The notes under the pieces were generated by a model that saw only the letters and a program-made list of their open reading frames with translations, was not told the origin of the DNA and did not search any database. A stretch of DNA of 64,000 nt from Candidatus Solibacter sp. (GTDB taxonomy: Bacteria > Chloroflexota > Dormibacteria > DASZGP01), in contig DATMMS010000005.1 in the NCBI GenBank assembly GCA_035569605.1, positions 355,262 to 419,261 on the forward strand, read 5' to 3'. A program made the translations under genes and the position numbers. Position 1 is the first letter of the stretch; the number at the start of each line of letters is the position of its first letter. Shown piece after piece: positions 12,371 to 49,740 of the stretch.

Positions 12371-12414
12371 TTGACACGAACGGCTGTTCGTGCATAATAG
12401 CGAACATGAGTTCG
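12371..12414 (+). promoter_or_regulatory. Sigma70-like promoter with two Cheo-type LexA boxes
   Basis: TTGACA 12371-12376, 16-bp spacer, CATAAT 12393-12398; CGAACGGCTGTTCG 12377-12390 fills the spacer; CGAACATGAGTTCG 12401-12414 overlaps the ATG at 12406. Confidence 0.55.
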
Positions 12415-12738
12415 TATGCCGATGTTCACTCTGGCGTCCGCCGTTCGCGCTACTACGCGCCGCCGGTGCCTCGTCGCAAGGCAGCCCGCATCAAGATCGG
12501 CCGGATCCTGGTGGTCCTCGGCATACTCATGATCGTCTTCATGAAGGCAGCCTATGGGGGAGGGCGGACGGGGACGGAATCCATCACCGTGCAGCCCGGC
12601 GAAACGGTTTGGAGCATCGCCGCCATCCGCTACCCGGACGACGACACCCGCAGCAGGGTGGCGGAAATCGTCGAGCTCAACCATCTCGGCAGCGCGCCAA
12701 TCTACTCCGGCGAGCGGCTGAGCATCCCGGCTCAGTAG
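12406..12738 (+). CDS. Small single-pass membrane protein with C-terminal LysM domain (YneA/ChiZ-like architecture)
   Basis: 110 aa; basic N-terminus, TM helix RILVVLGILMIVFM, LysM block ITVQPGETVWSIAA...SGERLSIP. Confidence 0.8.
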   Translation: MSSYADVHSGVRRSRYYAPPVPRRKAARIKIGRILVVLGILMIVFMKAAYGGGRTGTESITVQPGETVWSIAAIRYPDDDTRSRVAEIVELNHLGSAPIYSGERLSIPAQ

Positions 12739-18138: not shown

Positions 18139-19544
18139 CCAGGCCTCGGTTGCGCACGTCGAAGACAGTCGCGTTCGGTATTTTTGTCGCGTTCACAGGC
18201 CTGCTGCTGCTGGCCGCCACTGTAATGGCCGAGGTGCCCGCAACCGTCGACTCCTACGGCGGCAACGCCTTTGCCTCGGGTGTCCACGTCATCGTCGGCA
18301 GCAACAACGACCCCAACTTCTCCAACGGCGCGATCGGAAACCGGTATCCGCTGGCCCAGGCGGGGCAGGACATCTCGCCGGCATCGTCAGCGACAGCGAG
18401 CGTCGACGACTACGGGCCGTTGGTGTCGACCGTCCTCGGCAATGACTGCAACGCGCCGCCGCCGAGCCCTCTGCCGGCACCGTCGCCGCAGCCCAGTCCG
18501 AACTACTGCCTGGAACAGATCCGCAGGGACGTCCCGTACGCCCGGGCCCAGTTCCCCAACCCGCCCGGTGTGGCGGATCAGACGGTCAACGGTCCGAGCG
18601 ACCCCAGCCTGCCCCCGCTGCCAAGCACGGGCACGGCAAGCGCTCACGCCCGGGAGCTCCGGGCCTTCGCCGATGGCGTCTACACGGGATCGCCGGACGG
18701 AGCCACGTTCACCAACGCCACGGCCCACAGCGAGACCGGCGTCGCCAGTGATGGAACCATCACCGTCCGGACCCATTCCCACATCGGCTCCGCGTGTTTC
18801 GGCAGCTGCGGAGTGTCCAACTGGCTCCAGGTCACCAACACCGACGTGCAGACCATCGTCACCGCCGTCAACGGCAAGCCCGTGCCGCAGGCCGTGGTGG
18901 CGCCAGGACAGGTGCAGTTCTGTTCCGCGCCGGGGAACTGCCAGTCGGTGCAACTCTCAAACAACGGCGTCACCGTCGGAGGAATCGCCCCCCCGACGCC
19001 GCCTCCACCGGTCCCCGGTATTCCCACGTCGGTGCCGGTCCCAGGTACGGGAGCCAGCGGCGAGACCCCATTCTTCAAGGTCCGCACCATCAACCCGATC
19101 AAGTCCGTCAACGGCTCCACCGGGTCCATCGATGCTCTGGGCCTCGACGTCGAGGTCATGCAGCCGGGCAACTCGGGCTCCGGTATTCCCGACTCCCAGG
19201 TCGAGTTCATCCTCGGTGAGGGCCACGCCGACGGCTTCTCGCTGGCCTCGCTCGGTCTTGAGTCCGGCGGCGTCACCGACCTAACCGGCGGTGGCGACAC
19301 CGGCTCGCTGCTGGGGAGCATCGTGGGGGATAACCCAGGCGGCAGCGCCGCCGGCGTCACGCTGCCCGCGATCAAGCACACCGTCATCCGCCCCGGCGGA
19401 TTGGCTCTGGCGGGAGCTCTGCGGCCTCCGTTCATACCCTGGTTCTACGCCTGGGAAGCCTCCGCCTTCGCGGCCGCCGCTTCGATGGTCTGGGCCCGAA
19501 GGAGCCGTCTGAGAGACATTGCCGAGGAGGCGCTGGGCCAATGA
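18135..19544 (+). CDS. Hypothetical secreted/membrane-anchored protein, Pro-rich, Cys-containing
   Basis: 469 aa; N-terminal signal/anchor (VAFGIFVAFTGLLLLAA), C-terminal hydrophobic segment; ATGA overlap with ATPase stop; no family recognised. Confidence 0.6.
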   Translation: MTRPRLRTSKTVAFGIFVAFTGLLLLAATVMAEVPATVDSYGGNAFASGVHVIVGSNNDPNFSNGAIGNRYPLAQAGQDISPASSATASVDDYGPLVSTVLGNDCNAPPPSPLPAPSPQPSPNYCLEQIRRDVPYARAQFPNPPGVADQTVNGPSDPSLPPLPSTGTASAHARELRAFADGVYTGSPDGATFTNATAHSETGVASDGTITVRTHSHIGSACFGSCGVSNWLQVTNTDVQTIVTAVNGKPVPQAVVAPGQVQFCSAPGNCQSVQLSNNGVTVGGIAPPTPPPPVPGIPTSVPVPGTGASGETPFFKVRTINPIKSVNGSTGSIDALGLDVEVMQPGNSGSGIPDSQVEFILGEGHADGFSLASLGLESGGVTDLTGGGDTGSLLGSIVGDNPGGSAAGVTLPAIKHTVIRPGGLALAGALRPPFIPWFYAWEASAFAAAASMVWARRSRLRDIAEEALGQ

Positions 19545-19804
19545 GCGTGATGGCGGCCCGAACCGGCAAGACCACCCTGCACTGCCCCAACGACGACTGG
19601 GATTTCGATCCCCGATACACGGAGGGGGTATGCCCGATCTGCGGCTGGGGTCCGGGAAAGCGGCCCACCGCGGCCTGGCTGGCGCGGGTTGAGGCCCTGC
19701 CCTGGGACTACATCACGCTGGCGATCTTTGCTGTCGTGCTGCTCGTCGTGGGTGTGCTCGTCGGCATGGCCGCCAACGTGAACATCCTTCCCCAGGGCGC
19801 CTGA
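19541..19804 (+). CDS. Small zinc-ribbon membrane protein (hypothetical)
   Basis: 87 aa; CPNDDW...CPICGW Cys pairs then TM helix ITLAIFAVVLLVVGVLVGM; ATGA overlap with upstream gene. Confidence 0.5.
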   Translation: MSVMAARTGKTTLHCPNDDWDFDPRYTEGVCPICGWGPGKRPTAAWLARVEALPWDYITLAIFAVVLLVVGVLVGMAANVNILPQGA

Positions 19805-19866
19805 GGCTGCACCAGCTGTGATCGCCGCCGGCAACCTGCCGGCGGCTCAGTCGGAGGATCTTGGGG

Positions 19867-20427
19867 CTATCGGCGGGCTGTTCGCCAGGCCGAGTACGCT
19901 GTCGCGACGCCGGCCAGGCTGATCGCCGCCAGCAGGGATTCCACCGGCACCCCCGTGGTGAAGGGTGCCATGCCGATCGTCCAGGGGGCGCGATTGTGAG
20001 CCAGGACGGCGATATTGCTGGCGGTCACGAAGCCGACCAGCGAGGCGCCGCCCGCGGCCAGGATCGCAAGCCGCCGGACCCGGCCGGCGCCGGCGAGCGC
20101 CAGCGCTGCAGCCCCGATCAGCGTCAGGCCGAGTCCCAGCTCGGTCAGCTCGACAAGCCGGGGCAATATCGTCGGGAACCGGGAGGCCAGGTTCGCCATC
20201 ACGGCACCGTAGGGTCCTGGAGCGTGGGAGACGAAGCCCACAAAGCCGTTCACAAACGCGGCGTTCTGCAGCTTGGTCAAGCCTGAGAAGAGCCACTCCC
20301 AAGCCTGTACGGCGCTCAGAGTGGCGATGCCTACGTAAGGTCCCGCGGTCGCGAGCCCGGTACGGGCGGCTGTATGGACCCTGGCCGGAGCCGAGGTCCT
20401 GGTAGGGGAGACTGATGTAGCAGCCAT
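19867..20427 (-). CDS. Hypothetical polytopic membrane protein (possibly DoxX-like)
   Basis: 186 aa, several hydrophobic helices; family assignment weak. Confidence 0.45.
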   Translation of the reverse strand: MAATSVSPTRTSAPARVHTAARTGLATAGPYVGIATLSAVQAWEWLFSGLTKLQNAAFVNGFVGFVSHAPGPYGAVMANLASRFPTILPRLVELTELGLGLTLIGAAALALAGAGRVRRLAILAAGGASLVGFVTASNIAVLAHNRAPWTIGMAPFTTGVPVESLLAAISLAGVATAYSAWRTARR

Positions 20428-20654
20428 CTGGTCTGCCTCCTGTGCGGTTGTCCCGTACGAATCATCCGTACGGCGACTCCACTGGTGATAACTCCACGTT
20501 GATATACGGCATTCCGATGCGGCACCGGGCGCGCGATTGATCCGCGGCGCGCTTGGGGGACAGAGGGTTCAGAGGCCACTCTTCGCCTCAGACGTAGCGT
20601 CGTAAATTGTATCTTTTGCGACGTTTACCGAGAGGAAGAGAGTGGCGTCGGGGC

Positions 20655-21579
20655 CTATTTCGCCCGGCTGAAGTTCGCCGTGACCTTCGCGTCCAGCTGC
20701 GTTCCGAGGTCCTGGTACTGCTTTTGCAACGTGGCGTAGTCGAACTTCTCCAATGCGTCGATATCAATCTTGAGGGCCGCCTGGGCAGTCTCGATCGCGG
20801 ACAGATTCCGGTTCTGGACGCCGTCCACGACGCCCTTGATATGGGTCAGCTCCGACCTGAAAACGGCCAGGAACTCCTTCAGCTTGGACGGCGTGTCGGG
20901 CGCGGCCGTGGCTCCGGTGATCAGCTTGTCAAGGCTGGCGCTGGGAGCCGCATAGTCAGCCTCAGCGGTACTCACCTTTTGCGCGGTCAGGTCGGCGCTC
21001 AGAGTCTTGAGCTCGACCAGGGTGGTCATGAGATCGCTGATCAGGCCGATCTGCTGTTTGACCGATCCGATTACGCTTATCTCAGCGACAAGGCCATCGT
21101 GATAGGCGCCCAGCCGGCCATGCTCGCGATCCAGCATGCTCGCCGAGATGGCTGTGAACATTGATCGATCCTGTACCTTCCGGTCGGCCGTTGCGACGTC
21201 CCTGATCTCGGTTTCATCCGTGGACTTGAGCGAGTCGAGCTCCACGTTTGCCTGGTCCAGCGCCGTCTTCGCTCGGGCAGGGTCAAAGTTGGTCCCGCTA
21301 AGGTCACCCACGCCGCTGAAGACCGTGCGCAGCTTGGCTTCGAAGTCGACATGGCGCTGGTCGACGGTCGAGCGCACGGCGTTTGAGGCATCGATCCTGT
21401 CTTTGGCCGCGGCCCTGGAGGCGACGACATAACCCACCGCCACCCCGATCAAGACCACCACCGCCGCGACGACGATCAGGAGATTGCGCACGAGGTGGCC
21501 CGCTGCCGCTACGGGTGGCGGTGGCAGTGATTCCCATAATGCTGGCGTGGGCGTGGCCTGGACTGCTGGCTCGTCGATC
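20655..21579 (-). CDS. Hypothetical membrane-anchored protein with long helical ectodomain
   Basis: Start placed at ATG 21579 preceded by GAGAGGGGGA RBS-like purine run; N-terminal TM (LLIVVAAVVVLIGVAVGYVV); the ORF-track start 22112 is an Arg-rich extension overlapping the divergent gene. Confidence 0.6.
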
Positions 21580-21665
21580 ATTTCGTTGCGTTCCCCCTCT
21601 CGGTTACCCCGCAGTGGGGACCATGGTAGGCCACTTGTGCGCTGGCGTGCGCCTAACCTAGACGC

Positions 21666-22139
21666 ATGCGGGCGGTGAGTCTGCGGACGGCTGAGGTCCT
21701 GACCTGGATCGCGATCTGCCTGACCAGCTTCCTGGCGTTCCGGATCTTCGCGATCTACCTCACGCTGCTCAACCCGGCGACGTGCAACGACAGCTGTGAC
21801 CTGGGCCGCGACGCCATCCGCGTGTTCCTGGCGGTCTTCGTCGTCGGCTGGTTTCCCTGGCTGCTGATGCTCTGCATCTCCTACGCGCGGCGCCACGCCG
21901 AGCTGTGGTGGCTGCCGCACTGCGTGGTGATCGTCGGCGCCTATATCTTCGCCATGGCGTATGTGGCGGTCCTGTTCATGGGCTTCAGCGACGCCAATGG
22001 CCGCACGCCGTTCCTGGCGCTCTCGGCCGCCGCTAGCCTCGGGTTGGCCGGCCTGGTGCTGATCGCCGGCGTCGTGCTCGATCGCCATGTCCCCCCGGAC
22101 ACCACCGTCCACTTCTTCCAGGAGGACTCCGGAGAGTAG
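21666..22139 (+). CDS. Hypothetical membrane protein
   Basis: 157 aa, 4 predicted TM helices; divergent from previous gene. Confidence 0.5.
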   Translation: MRAVSLRTAEVLTWIAICLTSFLAFRIFAIYLTLLNPATCNDSCDLGRDAIRVFLAVFVVGWFPWLLMLCISYARRHAELWWLPHCVVIVGAYIFAMAYVAVLFMGFSDANGRTPFLALSAAASLGLAGLVLIAGVVLDRHVPPDTTVHFFQEDSGE

Positions 22140-23604: not shown

Positions 23605-23985
23605 TCAGCCGCTTTTACGAATGCCGTTATAGATAGTCTTGCCGCCCACCAGCAGCAGGTAAACCGCGAACACCTGGCGCAGCCGCTGCTGGTCGATGTG
23701 CACCGCCAGATAGGCGCCGGCCGCGGCGGTGACTGCCCCCAGCAGACCCATCCAGATCGTGGGCTGGATGTCGATATTGCCGCGGCGATAGTGCGACTGC
23801 GCTCCACTCAGCGCGGTGGGCAGGATAACCAGCAGGGACGTGCCCTGGGCGACCGATTGCTGCACTCCCAGGACCAGCACCATCGCCGGAACCATGATCA
23901 CGCCGCCGCCGATCCCAAGCGCTCCGGAAAGCATTCCTGAGACCAAACCGATGACCAGGGTCAGCGCCCCCTCACCGACGTTCAT
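23605..23985 (-). CDS. TSUP (TauE/SafE, DUF81) family membrane protein, C-terminal-half-like unit
   Basis: 126 aa, 4 TM; GxGGG motif SGALGIGGGVIMVP; start ATG overlaps stop of upstream half (ATGA). Confidence 0.7.
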   Translation of the reverse strand: MNVGEGALTLVIGLVSGMLSGALGIGGGVIMVPAMVLVLGVQQSVAQGTSLLVILPTALSGAQSHYRRGNIDIQPTIWMGLLGAVTAAAGAYLAVHIDQQRLRQVFAVYLLLVGGKTIYNGIRKSG

Positions 23986-24389
23986 GGCAGCAGCAGCCTG
24001 GTCGCCACGACGACGAGCAGCACGCCGAAGGCCAGCGTCAGCTGGCGGTCCGAGACGCGGTGGGCGATGACGGCGCCAAGCCGTGCGCCGACAACCCCTC
24101 CGATCGCCAGCAGCAAAGCGAGCTCAAACCGCACATTGTGGCCGCCCGCCAAGTAGTACGTGGCCACACCCACGATCGAGATCGGGATGATGGCGAGCAG
24201 CGAATTGGCGACCGCCCGCCTCTGGTTGAGGCCCAGCGCCCAGGTCAAACCTGGCACCAGCACCACTCCCCCACCGACGCCCAACAGGCCGCTCACGAAG
24301 CCGGCCACAGTGCCGACGCCAAGGGCCCGAGCTAAGGGCTTACCAGTAGCGCCAGGCACGGTTTCCGGGAGAGGTTCCAAACATCTCAC
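23982..24389 (-). CDS. TSUP (TauE/SafE, DUF81) family membrane protein, N-terminal-half-like unit
   Basis: 135 aa ORF; SGLLGVGGGVVLVPGL motif; start probably downstream of 24389 because the ORF overlaps the spoIID-like 3' end by 50 bp. Confidence 0.65.
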   Translation of the reverse strand: MRCLEPLPETVPGATGKPLARALGVGTVAGFVSGLLGVGGGVVLVPGLTWALGLNQRRAVANSLLAIIPISIVGVATYYLAGGHNVRFELALLLAIGGVVGARLGAVIAHRVSDRQLTLAFGVLLVVVATRLLLP

Positions 24390-26226
24390 CGTAGACCACG
24401 AAGTCAGCCGGTGAGCCGGCGTTGATTGCCCGGATGAACGCGCCCGGGGTCACCGTGCAGACGCGGGACGAACCGACCATGCGCACGCTGTTGAGGCGAT
24501 CTGAGGCGTCGCGGTCGGAGAGGTCGAAGGATCTCAGGGTGCCACACTGCGCCGCGCTGTAGGTCCCGCCCAGGTAGCCCTGGATCTCGCTGAGCGTGTG
24601 CGCCGGCGTGTACCAGGTGTGGAGTGGGCTGACGTCGTAGTTGTCGACCACCCCGGCCAGGTAGGGTGTGTTGCTGCCGCCCCACTCGTCCACGGCGGAC
24701 TGGGTGTGGCCGCCGTCGCTGGACGAGAACACTGCATCGATGATCTGGCCGCCGTAGAAGACCCCCTGCAAATGCGTCGTGGCGATGGCGGCGTTCTGCG
24801 ACTGGGTCTCGCGGCCGACTCCGCCGTAGACCTGGGAGGCGGTGGTGTCGTCGACGTCATACAGCCCTCCGCCGAGGTGGTACAGGGCGTAGGTGCGAGC
24901 GGCCACCATCTGGGCGGCGAGCGCGTTGAGGGGCCAGCTGGAAGGCACCTCGGCGATGCCTTGGAGGTAGCTCTCGAGCTCGACGTGGTTGATCACCTTG
25001 AAGCCGCTGCTGCCGTCGACCCAGGCCTCGCCGCGGTACTCCCGTCCACTGCCGCTGACCTGGAAGTACAGGCCGGGCACCAGCCGCAGCGTCGAGCTGT
25101 GGGCGCTGCCGCCTGCCCAGCTGGCGCTGATGCTGCCGTCGCCGTTGCGCGAGAACGTGGCCGTCTGGTCCTGCGCCAGGTGGCCCAGGACGTTGCCGGA
25201 GACGTCCTGCACCGTCGCCGGAGCGGACCTCGGGGTGATGGCGCCGCCGGCGCCCGTCAGGTAGACGCGGACGGTTTGGTCTGGGACCGAGCCGATGCTC
25301 ACCCCGCTGTAGAAGCTGTGAATGATCTGCTGCCACCCGATACCCGCCTGGGCCATGCCCAGCGCGCCGTACTGGGCCAGGCCCACGCCGTGCCCCCAGC
25401 CGTGCCCGCAGAAGCTGATCTTGCCCGCCGGCGCGGCAGGGCACACCGAGCCGTAGGCCAGCCCCGATCCCTTCTGACCGGCGGCTGCCGCTGCCGCCGC
25501 GGCGGCGGCGAGCGCCTGCTCCAACTGCGTCTCGGCTCGCTGGGTGCCACGAAGCGCGGCCAGCTGAGCGCGCTGCTGGGCCTCGATTTGGGATTCGATC
25601 GCGGCCTGGTTCTGGACCTGTCCCGATGCTGCAGCGGCTCTTGCCGCGAGCTCGGCCAGGAGCGGGTCGAGCTCGGCCTTGAGCCGCGCGGTCTCGTCAC
25701 GGTCGCGACTCAGCGCGTCGCGCTCCTCACGTAACCGGACCGCCTGGTCGTAGTTGTCGCGGGTCACGTGGGCGATGTAGATGAGGCGGTCAAGGAAGTC
25801 CGAGAAGCTGTTGGCCTCGAACAGGAAGACGATGGCGTCCGCCGGACCGGTCTTGTAGAGGCTGCGGCTCTGGGTCCGGAAAAGGTTGATATGAGCGTCG
25901 TGCTGCCTCTGGATCTGCTGGCCCCGGGCGTCGAGAGCCGCGATCTGGCGGCTGAGCTGATCTGCTCGGGCGAGCTGACTCTGATAGTCCGCCTGCTTGG
26001 CATTGAAGTCGGCGCGGAGCTGGTCCAGCATCGCCTGAGCCGACTGCTGCTGGCCGGCCAGCTGGTTGAGCGCCGCCCTCTGGCTCTGCTCCTGCGCCTT
26101 GAGCGCAGCCAGCTGATCTGGGGTCGGGTCAGCCAGGGCCGAGGTCGCCGGCATCGCGCCCACCATCAGGCAGACGGACAAAAACGTAGGCAGAAATGTG
26201 CGAAGACGCATGGAGGCTGAACTCAT
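24340..26226 (-). CDS. SpoIID/LytB-domain protein with N-terminal signal peptide and coiled-coil region
   Basis: 628 aa; signal peptide, Gln/Ala-rich coiled coil, poly-Ala run, C-terminal SpoIID-like blocks (MVAARTYALY...VYGG...SSSDGGHTQS). Confidence 0.8.
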   Translation of the reverse strand: MSSASMRLRTFLPTFLSVCLMVGAMPATSALADPTPDQLAALKAQEQSQRAALNQLAGQQQSAQAMLDQLRADFNAKQADYQSQLARADQLSRQIAALDARGQQIQRQHDAHINLFRTQSRSLYKTGPADAIVFLFEANSFSDFLDRLIYIAHVTRDNYDQAVRLREERDALSRDRDETARLKAELDPLLAELAARAAAASGQVQNQAAIESQIEAQQRAQLAALRGTQRAETQLEQALAAAAAAAAAAGQKGSGLAYGSVCPAAPAGKISFCGHGWGHGVGLAQYGALGMAQAGIGWQQIIHSFYSGVSIGSVPDQTVRVYLTGAGGAITPRSAPATVQDVSGNVLGHLAQDQTATFSRNGDGSISASWAGGSAHSSTLRLVPGLYFQVSGSGREYRGEAWVDGSSGFKVINHVELESYLQGIAEVPSSWPLNALAAQMVAARTYALYHLGGGLYDVDDTTASQVYGGVGRETQSQNAAIATTHLQGVFYGGQIIDAVFSSSDGGHTQSAVDEWGGSNTPYLAGVVDNYDVSPLHTWYTPAHTLSEIQGYLGGTYSAAQCGTLRSFDLSDRDASDRLNSVRMVGSSRVCTVTPGAFIRAINAGSPADFVVYGEMFGTSPGNRAWRYW

Positions 26227-26269
26227 TCTTTAGGCCGCCACCGGCCCTGTCAACCTCGTTGGCGGAGAT

Positions 26270-27232
26270 TTAGCCTGCCTGCGAGAGCTCCTTAATCACG
26301 TTCACAACGCTCTCGGACAGTCCGTGGAGGTCATATCCCCCCTCCAGGCACCAGGCGCTCCGGCCGTCGCAGAGATCAGCGGCCCAGGCGGTGATGCGAG
26401 CCGCCAGGATGCCGTAATCAACGGATTCCAGCTCCATCTGGGCCAGCGGATCGCTTCGGTGGGCATCGAAGCCCGCGCTCACGAGAAGCAGTTGGGGAGC
26501 GTATTCGCGGAGCGCGGGCGCGAAGACCTGATCGAACACCTCGACGTATTCAGATCGCCCCCCGCCCGCAGTCATTGGCGCGTTGAGGGTGAACCCTTCG
26601 CCTTCACCCTGGCCGCGCTCTGACGCGGCACCGGTGCCGGGATAGAGCGGGTACTCGTGGCAGGACATGTAGAGCACGTCGGACCGCTCGTAGAAGATGT
26701 CCTGGGTGCCGTTGCCGTGATGGACGTCGAAGTCCACGATCGCCACCCGTTCCAGTCCAAAGTCAAGCGCCGCCTGGGCTGCGATCGCGATGTTGTTGAA
26801 AAGGCAGAAGCCCATCGCCTTCGACCTGGTGGCGTGGTGGCCCGGGGGCCTGGTGAGGCTGAAGGCGGAGCCTTGCTCGCCCGCCAGGACCGACTGGACC
26901 GCCGCCACCGCCCCGCCCGCGGACGCCACCGCGGCGGCGACAGAGTTCGGCCCCAGCCAGGTGTCAGGGTCTAGCCACTCGCCCGTGCCCCGGGCATCGG
27001 CCGAAGCGCCGGCGTCGAAGATGGCGGCCACGTGGTGCGGGTCGTGCACGGATTCGAGCATCTCCCGCGTCGCCGGCTCGGGCCGCCGCCTCGGCAGCTC
27101 GCGGAGATCGGGGTCAGCCGCCAGCGCCTCATCGATGGCAGCCAGTCGCTCGGGCCGCTCGGGATGACCGGGCGCCTGGTGGAGGTCGCAGTCCGGGTGG
27201 CTGAAGAGAAGCGGCGCCCGCCCCGGAGTCAT
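26270..27232 (-). CDS. Histone deacetylase-superfamily hydrolase (AcuC/acetylpolyamine amidohydrolase-like)
   Basis: FDVHHGNGTQ...MSCHEYPLYPGTG blocks; ATG 27232 overlaps stop of upstream gene (ATGA); ORF-track start 27355 is an extension. Confidence 0.8.
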   Translation of the reverse strand: MTPGRAPLLFSHPDCDLHQAPGHPERPERLAAIDEALAADPDLRELPRRRPEPATREMLESVHDPHHVAAIFDAGASADARGTGEWLDPDTWLGPNSVAAAVASAGGAVAAVQSVLAGEQGSAFSLTRPPGHHATRSKAMGFCLFNNIAIAAQAALDFGLERVAIVDFDVHHGNGTQDIFYERSDVLYMSCHEYPLYPGTGAASERGQGEGEGFTLNAPMTAGGGRSEYVEVFDQVFAPALREYAPQLLLVSAGFDAHRSDPLAQMELESVDYGILAARITAWAADLCDGRSAWCLEGGYDLHGLSESVVNVIKELSQAG

Positions 27233-28446
27233 GTCACGTCGAGGTCGAGGGCCAGCTCCCGCAGGAATGACTCCACATCGGTAACGATGCCTACGGTCTG
27301 GAAGGAACCGCGGTCCGACAGCTTGGTCACCACCGATGGCTCCATGTCGACACATACCGTACGGACCGTTGCCGGCAGCAGGTTGCCGGTGGCGATGCTA
27401 TGCAGCATCGTGCCGACCATCAGGGCCAGCCTGATGTCCCGCTGGCGGATGGCCTGGCGCATCCTCTTCTGAGCCACGATCACATCGGTGATGACGTCGG
27501 GCAGAGGCCCGTCGTCCCGGATCGAGCCGGCCAGGACGATCTCGATCCCCGCCTTGGTCGCCTCGAACATGACGCCGCTTTTGACGACACCGCTCTCCAC
27601 GGCGGCCGCGATCGACCCCGCTCGGCGGATCTCGTTGATGGCTCGGATGTGGTGCTCATGGCCGTGCTCCAGGCCCAGGCCCGAATCGAGGCTGATGCCC
27701 AGCGAGGTTCCGAACAGCGACGACTCGATGTCGTGGGCGGCCAGCGCGTTGCCGGCGAACAGCACCTGCACGTACCCAGCGCGGATCAGAGCTGACAGAT
27801 AGCGTCCGGCGCCGGTGTGGATGACTGCGGGTCCCCCGACAAAGAGGATGGAGCCGCCGTCGGCGCGGATCTGGCGCATGTCGGCGGCGATCTCCCTGAT
27901 CACCAGCTTCTTGGGCTTCTCGGCCGACACCTGCGACTGCATGAACCCGAAGATCTCGCGGTCTCGGGATCGCTCCAGCGGCTGCACCCTAATTCCGAGA
28001 TACCCGGTCACCACCATCTGGCCAACCCGGGCCTCGTCGACGGGGAGGCAGAACGCTCGCTCGCCGTCGACCGCGATGCCGCAGTCCATCTCGATGTTCT
28101 CGACCTCCAGCCAGCGTTCGCCGACGCGCACCGAGGTCGGCTGGTTGCTGGTCGAGTAAAACTCGCCTGGGAAGACCCCATCCTGCGTCACCGCCTGCAG
28201 CTGGGCGCCGACGTGGTCCAGGGGCGCGGCGCCGTACTGCTGGATGGCGGTGAGGATCTCGCCCAGCAGGGTCTCGTCGCTCGCTTCCACCGACAGCCTC
28301 ACGTAGGACTTCTCGTCCTTGTGCTTGCCGACCCGGAACTCCTCGACGTCGAAGTTTCCGCCCATGTCCATGATCGTGTCCCAGACCTTGGGCAGAGCCA
28401 GGCTGTCGATGATGTGGCCCTCGAGGGCCACCAATGCCCGTTCCAT
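27229..28446 (-). CDS. Conserved hypothetical protein, possibly LOR/SDH-like domain family (TIGR00300-like); assignment tentative
   Basis: 405 aa from ATG 28446; Rossmann-like Gly-rich segment LFVGGPAVIHTGAGRYLSALIRAG; family call from recalled pattern only. Confidence 0.5.
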   Translation of the reverse strand: MERALVALEGHIIDSLALPKVWDTIMDMGGNFDVEEFRVGKHKDEKSYVRLSVEASDETLLGEILTAIQQYGAAPLDHVGAQLQAVTQDGVFPGEFYSTSNQPTSVRVGERWLEVENIEMDCGIAVDGERAFCLPVDEARVGQMVVTGYLGIRVQPLERSRDREIFGFMQSQVSAEKPKKLVIREIAADMRQIRADGGSILFVGGPAVIHTGAGRYLSALIRAGYVQVLFAGNALAAHDIESSLFGTSLGISLDSGLGLEHGHEHHIRAINEIRRAGSIAAAVESGVVKSGVMFEATKAGIEIVLAGSIRDDGPLPDVITDVIVAQKRMRQAIRQRDIRLALMVGTMLHSIATGNLLPATVRTVCVDMEPSVVTKLSDRGSFQTVGIVTDVESFLRELALDLDVT

Positions 28447-28456
28447 CTCGCCGATT

Positions 28457-29266
28457 CTAGAGCGCGGCTTGGATCTGATCGCGCAGCCGGCGCGCCGCAT
28501 CAGCAGCCGCGTGCTGGTGGTCCGGGCCACGGCTGGCGTGCATGATCGACCGCGAGGAGCTGATCAAGAAGGCACCCTCTCTCCCCTCCCCCGCGGCCGC
28601 CCCGACGGCGCCGACCAGGTCGCCCTGCTGGGCGCCGACCCCAGGGACCAGGATCGGCAGGCTCGGGCAAACGGCCCTGATCCGCTCGATGTCCGGCGGG
28701 AAGGTGGCGCCGGCGACCAACCCGACGTTGTCGTTGGTGTTCCACTGGTTGGCGAGCTCCGCCACCCGGAGGAAGAGCGGTGTGCCGTCCACCGGCAGCT
28801 CCTGCAGCTCGCTCGACCCGGCATTCGACGTGCGGCAGAGGACAAAGACGCCGCGCTCGGGGCGGCGCAGGAAGGGCTCCAGGCTGTCGCGCCCCATGTA
28901 CGGGCTGACCGTCGCCGCCCCGGCTCCGTAGGTCTCGTATGCCGCCTCCGCGTATCGCTCGGCGGTGTTGCCGATGTCACCTCGTTTGACGTCGAGGATC
29001 ACCGGGATCTCCTCTGGGACCGAGGCGATAACCGCCTGCAGCACCTCCATCCCGTGCGGGCCCATGATCTCGTAGAAGGCGGAGTTGGGTTTGTACGCGG
29101 CTGCAAACTCGGAGGTCGCCTCCACCACCCCGGTGACGAAGCGAAGCACCTCGTCGGGGTCGACTTCGAACTCCGCCGGGAGCGCCTCCAGGTCAGGGTC
29201 GAGCCCGACGCACACATTCGAGCCGCGATCGCGGATGGATGCGCGGAGAGATTCGTTGAAGGTCAA
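28457..29266 (-). CDS. pyrF: Orotidine 5'-phosphate decarboxylase, type 2
   Basis: 269 aa; VCVGLDPD and ILDVKRGDIGNT active-site blocks. Confidence 0.85.
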   Translation of the reverse strand: MTFNESLRASIRDRGSNVCVGLDPDLEALPAEFEVDPDEVLRFVTGVVEATSEFAAAYKPNSAFYEIMGPHGMEVLQAVIASVPEEIPVILDVKRGDIGNTAERYAEAAYETYGAGAATVSPYMGRDSLEPFLRRPERGVFVLCRTSNAGSSELQELPVDGTPLFLRVAELANQWNTNDNVGLVAGATFPPDIERIRAVCPSLPILVPGVGAQQGDLVGAVGAAAGEGREGAFLISSSRSIMHASRGPDHQHAAADAARRLRDQIQAAL

Positions 29267-35172: not shown

Positions 35173-36252
35173 CTAGCTTTCGCGGCGGAAACCGTAATCC
35201 AGCAGGCTTGCCGCGTCGGTGAAGATCAGCGGGTCGTCCATCTCCACCGTGACCAGGGTATGGCTGCCCCGATGGGCGCCGCCGACGAAGACCTGGCCGG
35301 CCTTGTCGGTGAGCCCGGTCTTGAAGCCGATGGCGCCAGGGTAGGTCCAGAGCAGCTTGTCGAGATTGGTCGGGAAGAAGGCCTTGTGGTCGGAGCTGTA
35401 AGCGAGCGTCTCCTCCTTGGTGGTGACCACGCCGGCAAGCACCGGATAGTGCTCATAGAGGTAGGCGGCAGTCAGCGCCAGGTCGTGGGCGCTGCTGTAC
35501 TGACCGGCGTCGTCCAGCCCCGAGGGATTGACGAATTGGGTGTCGGTCAGGCCCAGCGCGACGGCCTTGCTGTTCATGGCGCGGACAAAATCGGCCCGAC
35601 CGTGCCCGACCGTGGTGGCAGCAAGCGTCTCGGCCGCGTCGTTGCCCGAGTCCAGTAGCAGCCCGTAGAGGAGCTCGCGCACCGTCAGTGTTTCGCCGGC
35701 GCTGAGCCCCATGACATTGGGCTCCACGTTCACCGCTGTATCGGGCACCACCAGCCGGTCATCGGGGCTGGCGTGGTCAAGGGCTACCATCGCGGTCGTC
35801 AGCTTGGTGGTGCTGGCGATCGCCATCCGCTGGTGCGGGTTGCGGCTGAAGAGGACGTGGCGATTGTCGATATCGACCAGGATGGCGGCCTTGGCGCGGA
35901 CAGCCGGCGCGCCCGCCGCCGGGTTGGCCTGTGCCCAGCGGTAGTCCCAGGAGTACGGCGGCGAGAGCAGCGCCTGGGCCGCCTCGTGGCGGTCGCTGAC
36001 GGCATAGACCGGGACCGCCGGCTCGACCACGTGGGCGGCGGCGACGCTGGTGGCAGCGGTGGCAGCAGCTCGTCCGCCGATCGTGACGTGAGTTGCCATC
36101 CAGATCGCGCCAGCCAGGAGCGCCAGGGAGGCGAACAGCACCAGGACGTCCCGGCGCCGAGCGCCTTTCCGGCGCCGGGGACCGTAGGAGCGACTTGCTG
36201 GCGTGAATGTGACGCGTGCCGCGGATCTGCGCTGGTACAAGTCGGCCCCCAT
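35173..36252 (-). CDS. D-alanyl-D-alanine carboxypeptidase (serine-type, peptidase S11)
   Basis: Active-site SxxK in ASTTKLTTAMVALDH; N-terminal membrane anchor; ATG 36252. Confidence 0.8.
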   Translation of the reverse strand: MGADLYQRRSAARVTFTPASRSYGPRRRKGARRRDVLVLFASLALLAGAIWMATHVTIGGRAAATAATSVAAAHVVEPAVPVYAVSDRHEAAQALLSPPYSWDYRWAQANPAAGAPAVRAKAAILVDIDNRHVLFSRNPHQRMAIASTTKLTTAMVALDHASPDDRLVVPDTAVNVEPNVMGLSAGETLTVRELLYGLLLDSGNDAAETLAATTVGHGRADFVRAMNSKAVALGLTDTQFVNPSGLDDAGQYSSAHDLALTAAYLYEHYPVLAGVVTTKEETLAYSSDHKAFFPTNLDKLLWTYPGAIGFKTGLTDKAGQVFVGGAHRGSHTLVTVEMDDPLIFTDAASLLDYGFRRES

Positions 36253-36354
36253 GAAACCAGAGCCCCGTCGGGCTGTCAATCGCGCCCTCGGGCGCGCCGA
36301 CATTAGAGTAGCGGATGGGGTTTACTATGCTTCGACCATCGCTAGGAGGGAATC

Positions 36355-48681: not shown

Positions 48682-49740
48682 TTGGCGCCTGTGAGTCGCC
48701 TTTGGCGGCCGGGCTGCGGGATCGCCCTGGGCGCCGCTCCTTCCACTTCAGGAGGACAAATTCTGCGCTTTCGCATAGGGCTACTGGCTGTCGTGGCTGC
48801 GTTCTCCGTGCTGTCCACTACGACCGGCCTGGGAGCCACGGCTGACTCCCTCGCCGCCCTGGCGGCGCAGCGGCAGGCCCTGCAGGCCCAGGCGAACAGC
48901 GTCCTGGGGCAGCGTCAGACCACTTTGTCGCGGCTGCTGCAGACCAAGGACCTGCTGGCCACGCTTCGAGGGCAGCTCGATCAGAACGCCTCGAAACTGG
49001 CCGAGCTGCAGTCTCAGCAGGAGGACTTGAGAGCGGGAATCGAGGCCACCAGCGCCCACATGCAGACCGACCGCGACCTGCTCGCCGGAATCGTCCGCCA
49101 GCAGTACAAGACCCGAGGCGACAGCAAGCTGTCCCAGATCCTTTTCGATTCCTCGAACCTGAGCCAGATTGTCGATCGCATCGTCGCCACAGAGGCCATC
49201 AGCAGCCGTGCCCACGACCTGATTGTCGAGCTCCGGGTGGAGCAGTCGACCCTCAACAGCCAGTCCGCCGCGCTGGCCGCAAAGCAGGCCGAGGCCAACC
49301 GGCTCAGGGATCGCCTGACGGCGCAGAAAAAGCAGGTCCAGGCGGTCGCCGCCGACTACCAAACGCAGGTCGATTCGATGGACGCCAACGCCCAGGCGCT
49401 ACTGGCGCGAATCAAGGCAATCGACGCGGCAATCGCGGCCCTGACCTCGCCCCCTTCGGGGGGCCGCCAGTACACCCAGCAGCAGATCATCGCCATCATC
49501 AGGGGAGCGGCGGCCCAGTACGGCGCCAACGGCGACCAGATGGTGCGGGTCGCCCGCTGCGAGTCGAGCCTGAACCCGTACGCCTACAACCGGAGCTCTG
49601 GCGCTTCGGGTCTGTTCCAGTTCATGCCCGGCACCTTCTACGGCAACGGCGGGCACAACATCTGGGACCCCACCGACCAGTCGGATGTCGCCGCCAAGAT
49701 GTTCGCGCGGGGCGACTCCGGGGCCTGGAGCTGCAAGTAG
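48682..49740 (+). CDS. Secreted coiled-coil protein with C-terminal transglycosylase-like domain
   Basis: N-terminal anchor, long Gln/Ala-rich helical region, C-terminal GASGLFQFMPGTF block. Confidence 0.65.
   Translation: MAPVSRLWRPGCGIALGAAPSTSGGQILRFRIGLLAVVAAFSVLSTTTGLGATADSLAALAAQRQALQAQANSVLGQRQTTLSRLLQTKDLLATLRGQLDQNASKLAELQSQQEDLRAGIEATSAHMQTDRDLLAGIVRQQYKTRGDSKLSQILFDSSNLSQIVDRIVATEAISSRAHDLIVELRVEQSTLNSQSAALAAKQAEANRLRDRLTAQKKQVQAVAADYQTQVDSMDANAQALLARIKAIDAAIAALTSPPSGGRQYTQQQIIAIIRGAAAQYGANGDQMVRVARCESSLNPYAYNRSSGASGLFQFMPGTFYGNGGHNIWDPTDQSDVAAKMFARGDSGAWSCK

What the first reader, a model, noticed from the sequence alone, without database searches (positions are those of the whole stretch)
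25481..25510. GCN trinucleotide tract encoding a poly-Ala run inside the SpoIID-like gene
gcggctgccgctgccgccgcggcggcggcg (minus-strand reading) encodes about nine consecutive alanines within a Gln/Ala-rich coiled-coil region. Such tracts are slippage-prone and may vary in length between strains; the same protein has a signal peptide and the SpoIID-like catalytic domain.
Basis: seen in the sequence. Interest (0 to 1): 0.22.

Follow-up and report, generated by a model that had tools for sequence, protein, structure and literature searches.

The report
Fixed-length alanine helix in wall enzyme
The run of ten alanines is real, but it is a fixed-length, conserved alanine-rich helix joining the coiled-coil stalk of a secreted cell-wall-cutting enzyme to its catalytic domain, not an unstable repeat that changes length between strains, so it is an ordinary feature.

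Summary
The tract exists. Window 25480..25509 on the minus strand encodes ten consecutive alanines, A240-A249, in a 628-aa gene (24340..26226, minus).

The run is far beyond chance: about 1.5e-5 such runs are expected in the window's proteins. It is not a slippage tract, for these reasons:
- It uses mixed GCC/GCG/GCA codons. The longest perfect period-3 stretch is 12 nt, and Tandem Repeats Finder reports nothing there.
- In the 41-row alignment (48-100% identity) L239..K252 has no gap.
- 35 cluster members from seven 90%-identity clusters that include the region all keep the same tract length.
- Relatives differ only by substitution. The family consensus is LAAAxAAAxAAAxK.
- Five related loci keep ten alanines although about half of the codons differ synonymously, and although some carry a pure (GCC)6.

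The protein has a probable signal peptide and a Gln/Ala-rich antiparallel coiled coil whose best fold matches are PcsB and EnvC. The alanine helix follows, then a short Gly/Pro/Cys linker and a SpoIID/LytB domain with the catalytic glutamate conserved. The organism is a Dormibacteraeota MAG.

[quoted passage not shown] That regulatory role is inferred; no FtsEX genes lie in the window. Low interest.

The parts
25480..25509 (-). Ten consecutive Ala codons (A240-A249): GCC GCC GCC GCG GCG GCA GCG GCA GCC GCC
   Evidence: Searches give the sequence and translation. One search gives the chance estimates and repeat purity. One search shows that Tandem Repeats Finder finds nothing here.
25471..25524 (-). 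Conserved Ala-rich helical segment L235-K252. The family consensus is LExALAAAxAAAxAAAxK. It is the C-terminal end of the second long coiled-coil helix.
   Evidence: L235, E236, L239, A240, A244, A249 and K252 are invariant; A238, A241, A246 and A248 are conserved in at least 90%; positions 243, 247 and 251 are polar and variable; there are no indels. DSSP helix 141-251, with pLDDT below 50 from residue 241.
24340..26226 (-). Gene for a 628-aa secreted coiled-coil SpoIID/LytB-domain protein
   Evidence: ORF. (GC1/2/3 of 0.67/0.51/0.87, typical of genes here). (884 homologues; a 100% identical protein in an NCBI MAG). (domain matches).
26131..26226 (-). Probable signal peptide, aa 1-32, with cleavage after SALA
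   Evidence: Read from the sequence. A32 and D33 are at least 90% conserved. The model has pLDDT below 50 over residues 1-33. No signal-peptide predictor was run.
25474..26121 (-). Gln/Ala-rich antiparallel coiled-coil hairpin, aa 36-251 (helices 36-125, 127-136 and 141-251). The conserved tip motif is YKxGP...FSDFLDRL.
   Evidence: structure model. (composition). (Pfam CC_PcsB at aa 114-160, 22 bits, below the cut-off of 27). (NCBIfam PcsB model at aa 26-173, E 5e-5). (top fold matches are PcsB 4CGK, EnvC 8TZL/6TPI, RipC 8IDC and RipA 6EWY).
25408..25473 (-). Short Gly/Pro-rich linker, aa 252-273 (KGSGLAYGSVCPAAPAGKISFC), with invariant C262 and C273
   Evidence: conservation. (no regular secondary structure, pLDDT below 50 to residue 260).
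25276..25422 (-). GHGWGHGVGLAQYGA segment, aa 269-317. It is homologous to the C-terminal end of crystallised SpoIID but sits N-terminal of the main domain here.
   Evidence: query 269-317 aligns to 4RWR residues 275-323 and to 5I1T residues 283-326.
24577..25008 (-). SpoIID/LytB catalytic core, aa 407-550, including invariant E426, which aligns with the catalytic E101 of C. difficile SpoIID
   Evidence: PF08486 and TIGR02669. (alignment to 4RWR and 5I1T). (E426 invariant). (E101 is catalytic, PMC6221140).

Best explanation
The Ala10 run is the all-alanine form of a conserved, fixed-length, alanine-rich alpha-helical segment (family consensus LAAAxAAAxAAAxK). This segment ends the coiled-coil module of a secreted peptidoglycan lytic-transglycosylase-like enzyme and leads, through a short Gly/Pro/Cys linker, into its SpoIID/LytB catalytic domain.

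In this sub-clade the three or four tolerant, normally polar positions (242/243, 247, sometimes 250) have been replaced by Ala through point substitutions. This produces a homopeptide without any repeat expansion. Selection keeps the length and the small helix-forming side chains, so the tract behaves as a rigid spacer helix and not as a mutable repeat.

By analogy with PcsB and EnvC, this helix may hold or gate the catalytic domain relative to the regulatory coiled coil, as a 'restraining arm'. This last step is inferred, not shown.
For: Shown:
- The tract uses mixed synonymous codons; the longest perfect period-3 stretch is 12 nt, and Tandem Repeats Finder is silent.
- There is no indel between L239 and K252 in the 41-row alignment at 48-100% identity. 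A240, A244, A249 and K252 are invariant, and variation is confined to positions 242, 243, 245, 247, 250 and 251.
- The tract length is identical in all 35 members of seven 90%-identity clusters that include the region.
- Ala10 is kept in L002, L003, L004, L008 and L010, with 5-6 of 10 codons differing synonymously from the window.
- Orthology is supported by conserved gene order: ArgZ-like, HDAC-family, this gene, TauE, Zn finger, XerC/D-like.
- The model places residues 240-249 at the C-terminal end of helix 141-251, directly before the unstructured linker and the catalytic domain.
- The best fold matches of the whole model are PcsB, then EnvC (both in complex with FtsX or FtsEX), RipC and RipA.

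From the literature:
- PcsB has an alanine-rich helix (residues 210-253) between its coiled coil and its CHAP domain. That helix is described as homologous to the EnvC restraining arm (PMC7668044).
- PolyA stretches can form, and overlap with, coiled-coil structures (PMC4049302).
Against: - The model's confidence is low exactly here (pLDDT below 50 for residues 241-260), so the helical state rests on Ala helix propensity and DSSP of a weak model.
- The fold matches to PcsB and EnvC are weak (E 3e-4 to 8e-3, TM 0.2-0.4), and generic coiled coils such as Smc also match.
- The sequence matches to PcsB models are below their cut-offs.
- No FtsE or FtsX gene lies in the 64-kb window, so the regulatory analogy has no support from context.
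- The 40%-identity sister family has a shorter, less Ala-rich junction (LDRYETEAAQAALRGSG), so the Ala-rich form is specific to this clade and not essential to the architecture.
- No reads were available, so within-population heterogeneity below the assembly level was not tested.
Confidence: 0.78

Rival explanations
1. The GCN tract is a slippage-prone trinucleotide repeat whose copy number changes between strains. That would tune the length of the stalk or generate variation.
For: GC-rich GCC/CGG-type repeats are intrinsically slippage-prone (PMC8113271). The run is far longer than chance allows. Some relatives carry a purer (GCC)5-6 stretch.
Against: The codons are mixed and the longest perfect period-3 stretch is 12 nt. 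Tandem Repeats Finder reports nothing. There is no length difference between L239 and K252 in the 41-row alignment, nor in the 35 near-identical cluster members from several sources. The codons diverge synonymously while the count stays at 10.
Confidence: 0.04
2. The Ala-rich stretch is a flexible, disordered low-complexity linker that merely tethers the catalytic domain to the coiled coil and has no defined structure.
For: pLDDT is below 50 over residues 241-260. Reviews describe an 'alanine-rich linker' in PcsB. The polar positions tolerate many residues.
Against: Flexible linkers usually vary in length, but this one has no indel between L239 and K252 in the 41-row alignment. Seven positions are invariant and four more are conserved in at least 90%. 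Ala has the highest helix propensity, and DSSP continues helix 141-251 through the tract. The truly linker-like Gly/Pro segment follows at 252-268, and that is where the only indels occur.
Confidence: 0.15
3. The homopeptide is a neutral by-product of GC-rich codon pressure acting on unconstrained positions. It carries no selected property of its own beyond what the AAAxAAAx motif already had.
For: The genome has 67% GC and 12.6% Ala. Only 3-4 substitutions separate the family consensus from Ala10. An independent Ala10 or Ala11 state appears in a more distant relative (P0019) and in P0008.
Against: Loci with Ala10 are not more GC-rich (0.667-0.689) than loci with AAAQAAAE (0.674-0.726). Ala10 is stably kept across sequences down to 74% identity (P0002-P0006). 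This account concerns the origin of the run and is compatible with the best explanation; it does not exclude it.
Confidence: 0.3

Closest known systems
PcsB of Streptococcus pneumoniae (PDB 4CGK), an FtsEX-controlled peptidoglycan hydrolase with an alanine-rich helix/linker
   Same: Both are secreted proteins with a long antiparallel coiled coil, then an alanine-rich helix, a short linker and a C-terminal cell-wall-cleaving domain. PcsB is the top fold match of the model. Weak sequence matches to PcsB coiled-coil models fall at the hairpin tip. The alanine-rich helix 210-253 of PcsB lies in the same position (PMC7668044).
   Different: The catalytic domain here is SpoIID/LytB (a lytic-transglycosylase type), not CHAP. 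The NCBIfam PcsB equivalog scores 22.6 bits against a cut-off of 450. No ftsEX genes are nearby. The organism is a Dormibacteraeota MAG, not a Firmicute.
EnvC (PDB 6TPI, 8TZL) and RipC (8IDC), coiled-coil partners of FtsEX; the EnvC 'restraining arm'
   Same: They share the coiled-coil hairpin fold. In each, a helix lies between the coiled coil and the C-terminal domain, and in EnvC it gates that domain (PMC7668044).
   Different: EnvC carries a degenerate LytM domain and activates separate amidases. Here the C-terminal domain keeps its catalytic Glu (E426). The gating role of the Ala helix is not shown here.
SpoIID of Bacillus and Clostridioides (PDB 4RWR, 5I1T, 5TXU), the sporulation lytic transglycosylase
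   Same: The catalytic core is homologous (E 1.9e-17 to 4RWR). The catalytic glutamate is conserved, and so are the AQxVAARTY and GHGVG motifs.
   Different: The protein is not SpoIID proper: TIGR02870 scores 83 bits against a cut-off of 234.75. It has a 215-aa coiled coil in place of a membrane anchor, and a beta-rich insert at aa 318-406. The GHGVG segment lies N-terminal of the core, a permuted order.
Simple-sequence contingency repeats and disease-type polyalanine expansions
   Same: It is a GCN-encoded homopeptide.
   Different: The codon repeat is not pure and no length polymorphism is seen.

Membership tests
SpoIID/LytB domain family (Pfam PF08486, NCBIfam TIGR02669) | Profile match above the curated cut-off | tested here: met
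   PF08486 scores 65.5 bits against a cut-off of 23. TIGR02669 scores 165.3 bits against 83.3.
SpoIID/LytB domain family (Pfam PF08486, NCBIfam TIGR02669) | Catalytic glutamate (E101 in C. difficile SpoIID) present | tested here: met
   E426 aligns with the Glu of GEM in 5I1T (chain residue 77, which corresponds to E101). It is invariant in all 41 aligned sequences. The catalytic role of E101 is from PMC6221140.
SpoIID/LytB domain family (Pfam PF08486, NCBIfam TIGR02669) | Canonical order of segments: core first, then the C-terminal GHGVGMSQ segment | tested here: not met
   The GHGVG segment (aa 269-317) precedes the core (aa 411-554). The same permuted order occurs in the distant homologues P0106-P0120.
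Stage II sporulation protein D proper (TIGR02870 equivalog) | Equivalog score above the cut-off | tested here: not met
   83 bits against a cut-off of 234.75.
PcsB / EnvC / RipC-type FtsEX-regulated coiled-coil cell-wall hydrolases | N-terminal antiparallel coiled-coil hairpin of the PcsB/EnvC fold | tested here: inconclusive
   The top fold matches are 4CGK, 8TZL_E, 6TPI_A, 8IDC_E and 6EWY, but with TM 0.2-0.7 and E of 3e-4 or weaker. Pfam CC_PcsB scores 22 bits, below its cut-off of 27.
PcsB / EnvC / RipC-type FtsEX-regulated coiled-coil cell-wall hydrolases | Alanine-rich or restraining helix between the coiled coil and the C-terminal domain | tested here: met
   The conserved LAAAxAAAxAAAxK segment lies at the end of helix 141-251, before the catalytic domain. 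The PcsB counterpart is described in PMC7668044.
PcsB / EnvC / RipC-type FtsEX-regulated coiled-coil cell-wall hydrolases | Physical or genetic dependence on FtsEX | not testable with these tools
   No ftsE or ftsX gene is in the window. The rest of the genome was not available.
PcsB / EnvC / RipC-type FtsEX-regulated coiled-coil cell-wall hydrolases | PcsB equivalog score, CHAP domain | tested here: not met
   NF046104 scores 22.6 bits against a cut-off of 450, and no CHAP domain is found.
Slippage-prone simple-sequence (contingency) repeat | Uninterrupted identical repeat units | tested here: not met
   Three different codons are used, the longest perfect period-3 stretch is 12 nt, and Tandem Repeats Finder reports nothing.
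Slippage-prone simple-sequence (contingency) repeat | Copy-number differences among strains or close relatives | tested here: not met
   The length is identical in all 35 near-identical cluster members that include the region and in the 41-row alignment. At the DNA level ten codons are kept in 5 related loci. Read-level variation was not testable.

The most novel reading that the evidence does not exclude
The protein family may be an uncharacterised, FtsEX-type (PcsB/EnvC-like) regulated lytic transglycosylase of Dormibacteraeota. It consists of a coiled coil, a fixed Ala-rich helix and a permuted SpoIID/LytB domain, and its gene order is conserved across the phylum. In this reading the fixed-length alanine helix acts as the autoinhibitory restraining arm. 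That would extend the coiled-coil activation mechanism to a fourth catalytic class and to an uncultured phylum.
Probability: 0.25. Interest if true: 0.4.

Novelty: new member of a known kind. Interest (0 to 1): 0.12.

Why it matters
As a repeat the tract does not matter much. It is not a mutable locus, and its length appears to be under purifying selection. It is a useful reminder that a homopeptide in a GC-rich genome can arise by point substitution inside an already Ala-rich helix.

The host protein is mildly interesting. It joins a PcsB/EnvC-like coiled coil and an Ala-rich helix to a SpoIID/LytB lytic-transglycosylase domain, in an uncultured phylum (Dormibacteraeota). This hints that coiled-coil-gated control of cell-wall cleavage is used with more catalytic domains than the CHAP, NlpC/P60 and LytM types studied so far.

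Tried and rejected
- **Tandem Repeats Finder** on 24000-26500 at a minimum score of 30 found nothing at the tract.
- **Plus-strand reading.** The quoted string reads Ala10 in a plus-strand frame, but that frame is not within any long ORF. The long antisense ORF 24598..25734 reads GGCRCRRGGGE there. The minus-strand gene has the GC3 signature and the homologues. Rejected.
- **GC-pressure explanation.** Loci with Ala10 are not more GC-rich than loci with interrupted motifs. Not supported as a sufficient cause.
- **Search for ftsE/ftsX or other partners in the window.** Pfam scans of 60 ORFs, including ORFs in the gaps of the first gene list, found none.
- **Rfam and tRNA scans** of the window found only five tRNAs, none near the gene.
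- **Literature search** for a coiled-coil SpoIID linked to FtsEX found nothing relevant.
- **Second structure prediction.** Not run. The tool returns no contacts, so it could not show whether the Ala helix docks on the catalytic domain.

Full report
**1. The observation**

The minus strand of window 25509..25480 reads GCC GCC GCC GCG GCG GCA GCG GCA GCC GCC. In the frame of the 628-aa ORF 24340..26226 (minus) this is A240-A249, ten consecutive alanines.

The string it quoted is the plus-strand text. Because (GCS)n is nearly self-complementary, that text also reads Ala10, but in a plus-strand frame that belongs to no long ORF.

The minus-strand ORF is the real gene. Its GC1/GC2/GC3 is 0.67/0.51/0.87, like the other genes of the window. 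It has 884 database homologues, including a 100% identical protein from an NCBI MAG.

The run is not a chance event:
- Ala makes up 12.6% of the window's 16.9k coding residues, so 1.5e-5 runs of 10 or more are expected.
- Only 9 of 200,000 shuffles of the Ala-rich coiled-coil segment reach 10.
- It is the only Ala run of 5 or more in the window's genes, and the longest homopeptide in any of the six frames.

**2. The protein**

| Segment (aa) | What it is | Evidence |
|---|---|---|
| 1-32 | Probable signal peptide (MRLRT, hydrophobic core, SALA\|DP) | By eye; A32/D33 conserved in at least 90%; pLDDT below 50 |
| 36-125, 127-136, 141-251 | Long-helix hairpin, 23% Ala and 15% Gln | AlphaFold2 model from 41 homologues (mean pLDDT 72) |
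| 252-273 | Unstructured Gly/Pro-rich linker with invariant C262 and C273 | |
| 269-317 | GHGWGHGVGLAQYGA segment | |
| 318-406 | Beta-rich insert | |
| 407-491 | Pfam SpoIID, E 7e-18 | |
| 411-550 | TIGR02669 SpoIID/LytB, 165 bits against a cut-off of 83 | |

E426 aligns with the Glu of the GEM motif of C. difficile SpoIID (chain residue 77 of 5I1T, which corresponds to E101) and is invariant in the family. E101 is the catalytic residue (PMC6221140).

The protein is not SpoIID proper: the TIGR02870 equivalog scores 83 bits against a cut-off of 234.75.

The organism is a Dormibacteraeota MAG. Relatives with the same gene order carry that label. The NCBI label of the identical protein, 'Candidatus Solibacter sp.', looks like a binning or naming error.

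**3. Is the tract a slippage-prone, length-variable repeat?**

This was tested in three ways, and all three results were negative.

*(a) Repeat purity.* Three synonymous codons are mixed. The longest perfect period-3 stretch is 12 nt and the longest period-6 stretch is 14 nt. Tandem Repeats Finder at its lowest threshold reports nothing.

*(b) Comparison across species.*
- In an alignment of 40 homologues at 48-100% identity, the segment from L239 to K252 has no gap in any sequence.
- The only indels in the neighbourhood come after K252, in three sequences.
- The family consensus is LE-A-L-AAAxAAAxAAAx-K.
- A240, A244, A249 and K252 are invariant. A238, A241, A246 and A248 are conserved in at least 90%.
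- Variation is concentrated at 243 (Q20, A15, E3, D2, N1), 247 (A18, E12, N7, D2, Q2), 251, 242 and 250.
- The window's Ala10 is therefore this motif with the few tolerant positions also occupied by Ala.
- P0008 reaches Ala11 by a G250A substitution, and P0040 interrupts the run by A242P. Both keep the same length.

*(c) Comparison across strains.*
- Of 44 members examined from seven 90%-identity clusters, drawn from JGI, ENA, Logan, NCBI and SRC data, 35 include the region.
- All 35 have the same tract length.
- 25 of them, in five clusters, have exactly Ala10. The 10 members of clusters 4 and 7 carry interrupted runs of the same length.

*At the DNA level.*
- Five related loci (L002, L003, L004, L008, L010; 78-89% protein identity) keep ten Ala codons.
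- 5-6 of the ten codons differ synonymously from the window.
- L002 and L003 carry a pure (GCC)6, and L004 and L010 a (GCC)5, without any length change in their cluster.

The gene order (ArgZ-like, HDAC-family, this gene, two half-size TauE, Zn finger, XerC/D-like) is conserved in L001-L019, so these are orthologues.

Together these results show that the number of residues is under constraint and that the sequence evolves by point substitution.

**4. What the tract most likely does**

The tract forms the last turns of the second long helix of the coiled-coil hairpin. It sits immediately before the flexible Gly/Pro linker and the catalytic domain.

The strict conservation of length and of small residues, together with tolerance at positions i, i+4 and i+8, fits a rigid Ala-coated helix. 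Such a helix would set the distance and orientation between the coiled coil and the enzyme, and it can pack closely against another surface.

The best fold matches of the whole model are:
- PcsB (4CGK, E 2.9e-4)
- EnvC in the FtsEX complex (8TZL_E) and bound to the FtsX periplasmic domain (6TPI_A)
- RipC (8IDC_E) and the RipA N-terminal domain (6EWY) lower down

Weak sequence matches to PcsB coiled-coil models fall on the hairpin tip.

PcsB has an alanine-rich helix (residues 210-253) between its coiled coil and its CHAP domain. Cook et al. equate that helix with the restraining arm of EnvC and propose that it gates the catalytic domain (PMC7668044). PolyA segments can form, and overlap with, coiled coils (PMC4049302).

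I therefore propose that the Ala helix here is the counterpart of that element. This step is an inference:
- The model is poor at residues 241-260.
- Coiled-coil fold matches are promiscuous.
- No ftsEX genes are present in the 64 kb.
- The sister family at 40% identity has a shorter, less Ala-rich junction.

**5. Rivals**

- *Slippage tract.* Contradicted by section 3.
- *Disordered linker.* Possible given the low pLDDT, but hard to reconcile with zero indels and eleven conserved positions. The Gly/Pro segment that follows is the linker-like part, and it is where the indels occur.
- *Neutral GC-driven drift at tolerant sites.* Plausible as the origin of the all-Ala state and compatible with the main explanation. 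However, Ala10 loci are not more GC-rich than the others.

**6. Novelty and verdict**

The tract is a real but ordinary feature. It is a conserved alanine-rich connector helix of a kind already described in coiled-coil cell-wall hydrolases, here in a new host protein (coiled coil plus SpoIID/LytB domain) from an uncultured phylum. Interest is low. The only aspect worth pursuing is whether this family is an FtsEX-type regulated lytic transglycosylase.

Noticed in passing
window 24577-25422 (-), aa 269-550 of the protein: The segment order is permuted relative to crystallised SpoIID (4RWR, 5I1T) and to the TIGR02669 model. The GHGVG...QYGA segment that ends canonical SpoIID lies N-terminal of the catalytic core here, separated from it by a beta-rich insert (aa 318-406). 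Distant homologues P0106-P0120 also have a single GHGVG motif directly after the signal peptide, so this looks like a widespread circularly permuted subfamily.
   Followed up: partly
window 26270-28530 (-) and L001-L049: An HDAC-family (deacetylase/amidohydrolase) gene lies directly upstream of the coiled-coil SpoIID gene on the same strand, in essentially every related locus, including the 40%-identity family. An ArgZ-like/LOR-SDH gene precedes it in the closer clade. Whether there is a functional link is unknown.
   Followed up: partly
window 23605-24389 (-): The TauE/SafE-type membrane protein is encoded as two adjacent half-size ORFs with a 4-bp overlap. Each matches one half of the Pfam profile, and both are conserved as separate pieces in relatives.
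   Followed up: partly
window 24340-26226 (-), residues C262/C273 and C561/C590: Two pairs of invariant cysteines occur in a secreted protein. They may form disulfides, one of them clamping the loop just before the GHGWGHG motif.
   Followed up: no
window 26154-26226 (-): Three different start codons are in use for the same gene. The longest ORF gives 628 aa, JGI gives 623 aa (P0121), and NCBI gives 604 aa (P0001, HXA42666.1). The NCBI start would delete the signal peptide. No obvious Shine-Dalgarno sequence lies upstream of either of the first two ATGs.
   Followed up: partly
whole window / P0001: The 100% identical NCBI protein is labelled 'Candidatus Solibacter sp.' (Acidobacteriota). All syntenic relatives are Dormibacteraeota or 'Chloroflexi CF_' MAGs, so the MAG is probably mis-binned or mislabelled.
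   Followed up: no
window 19544-21666: About 2 kb has no ORF with a clear coding signature or Pfam match, and no Rfam or tRNA hit.
   Followed up: no
window 12406-12738, 35173-36303, 48682-49740: Other cell-wall genes are scattered in the window: a small LysM protein, a D-Ala-D-Ala carboxypeptidase (S11) and an SLT-domain transglycosylase. None is adjacent to the gene in question.
   Followed up: no
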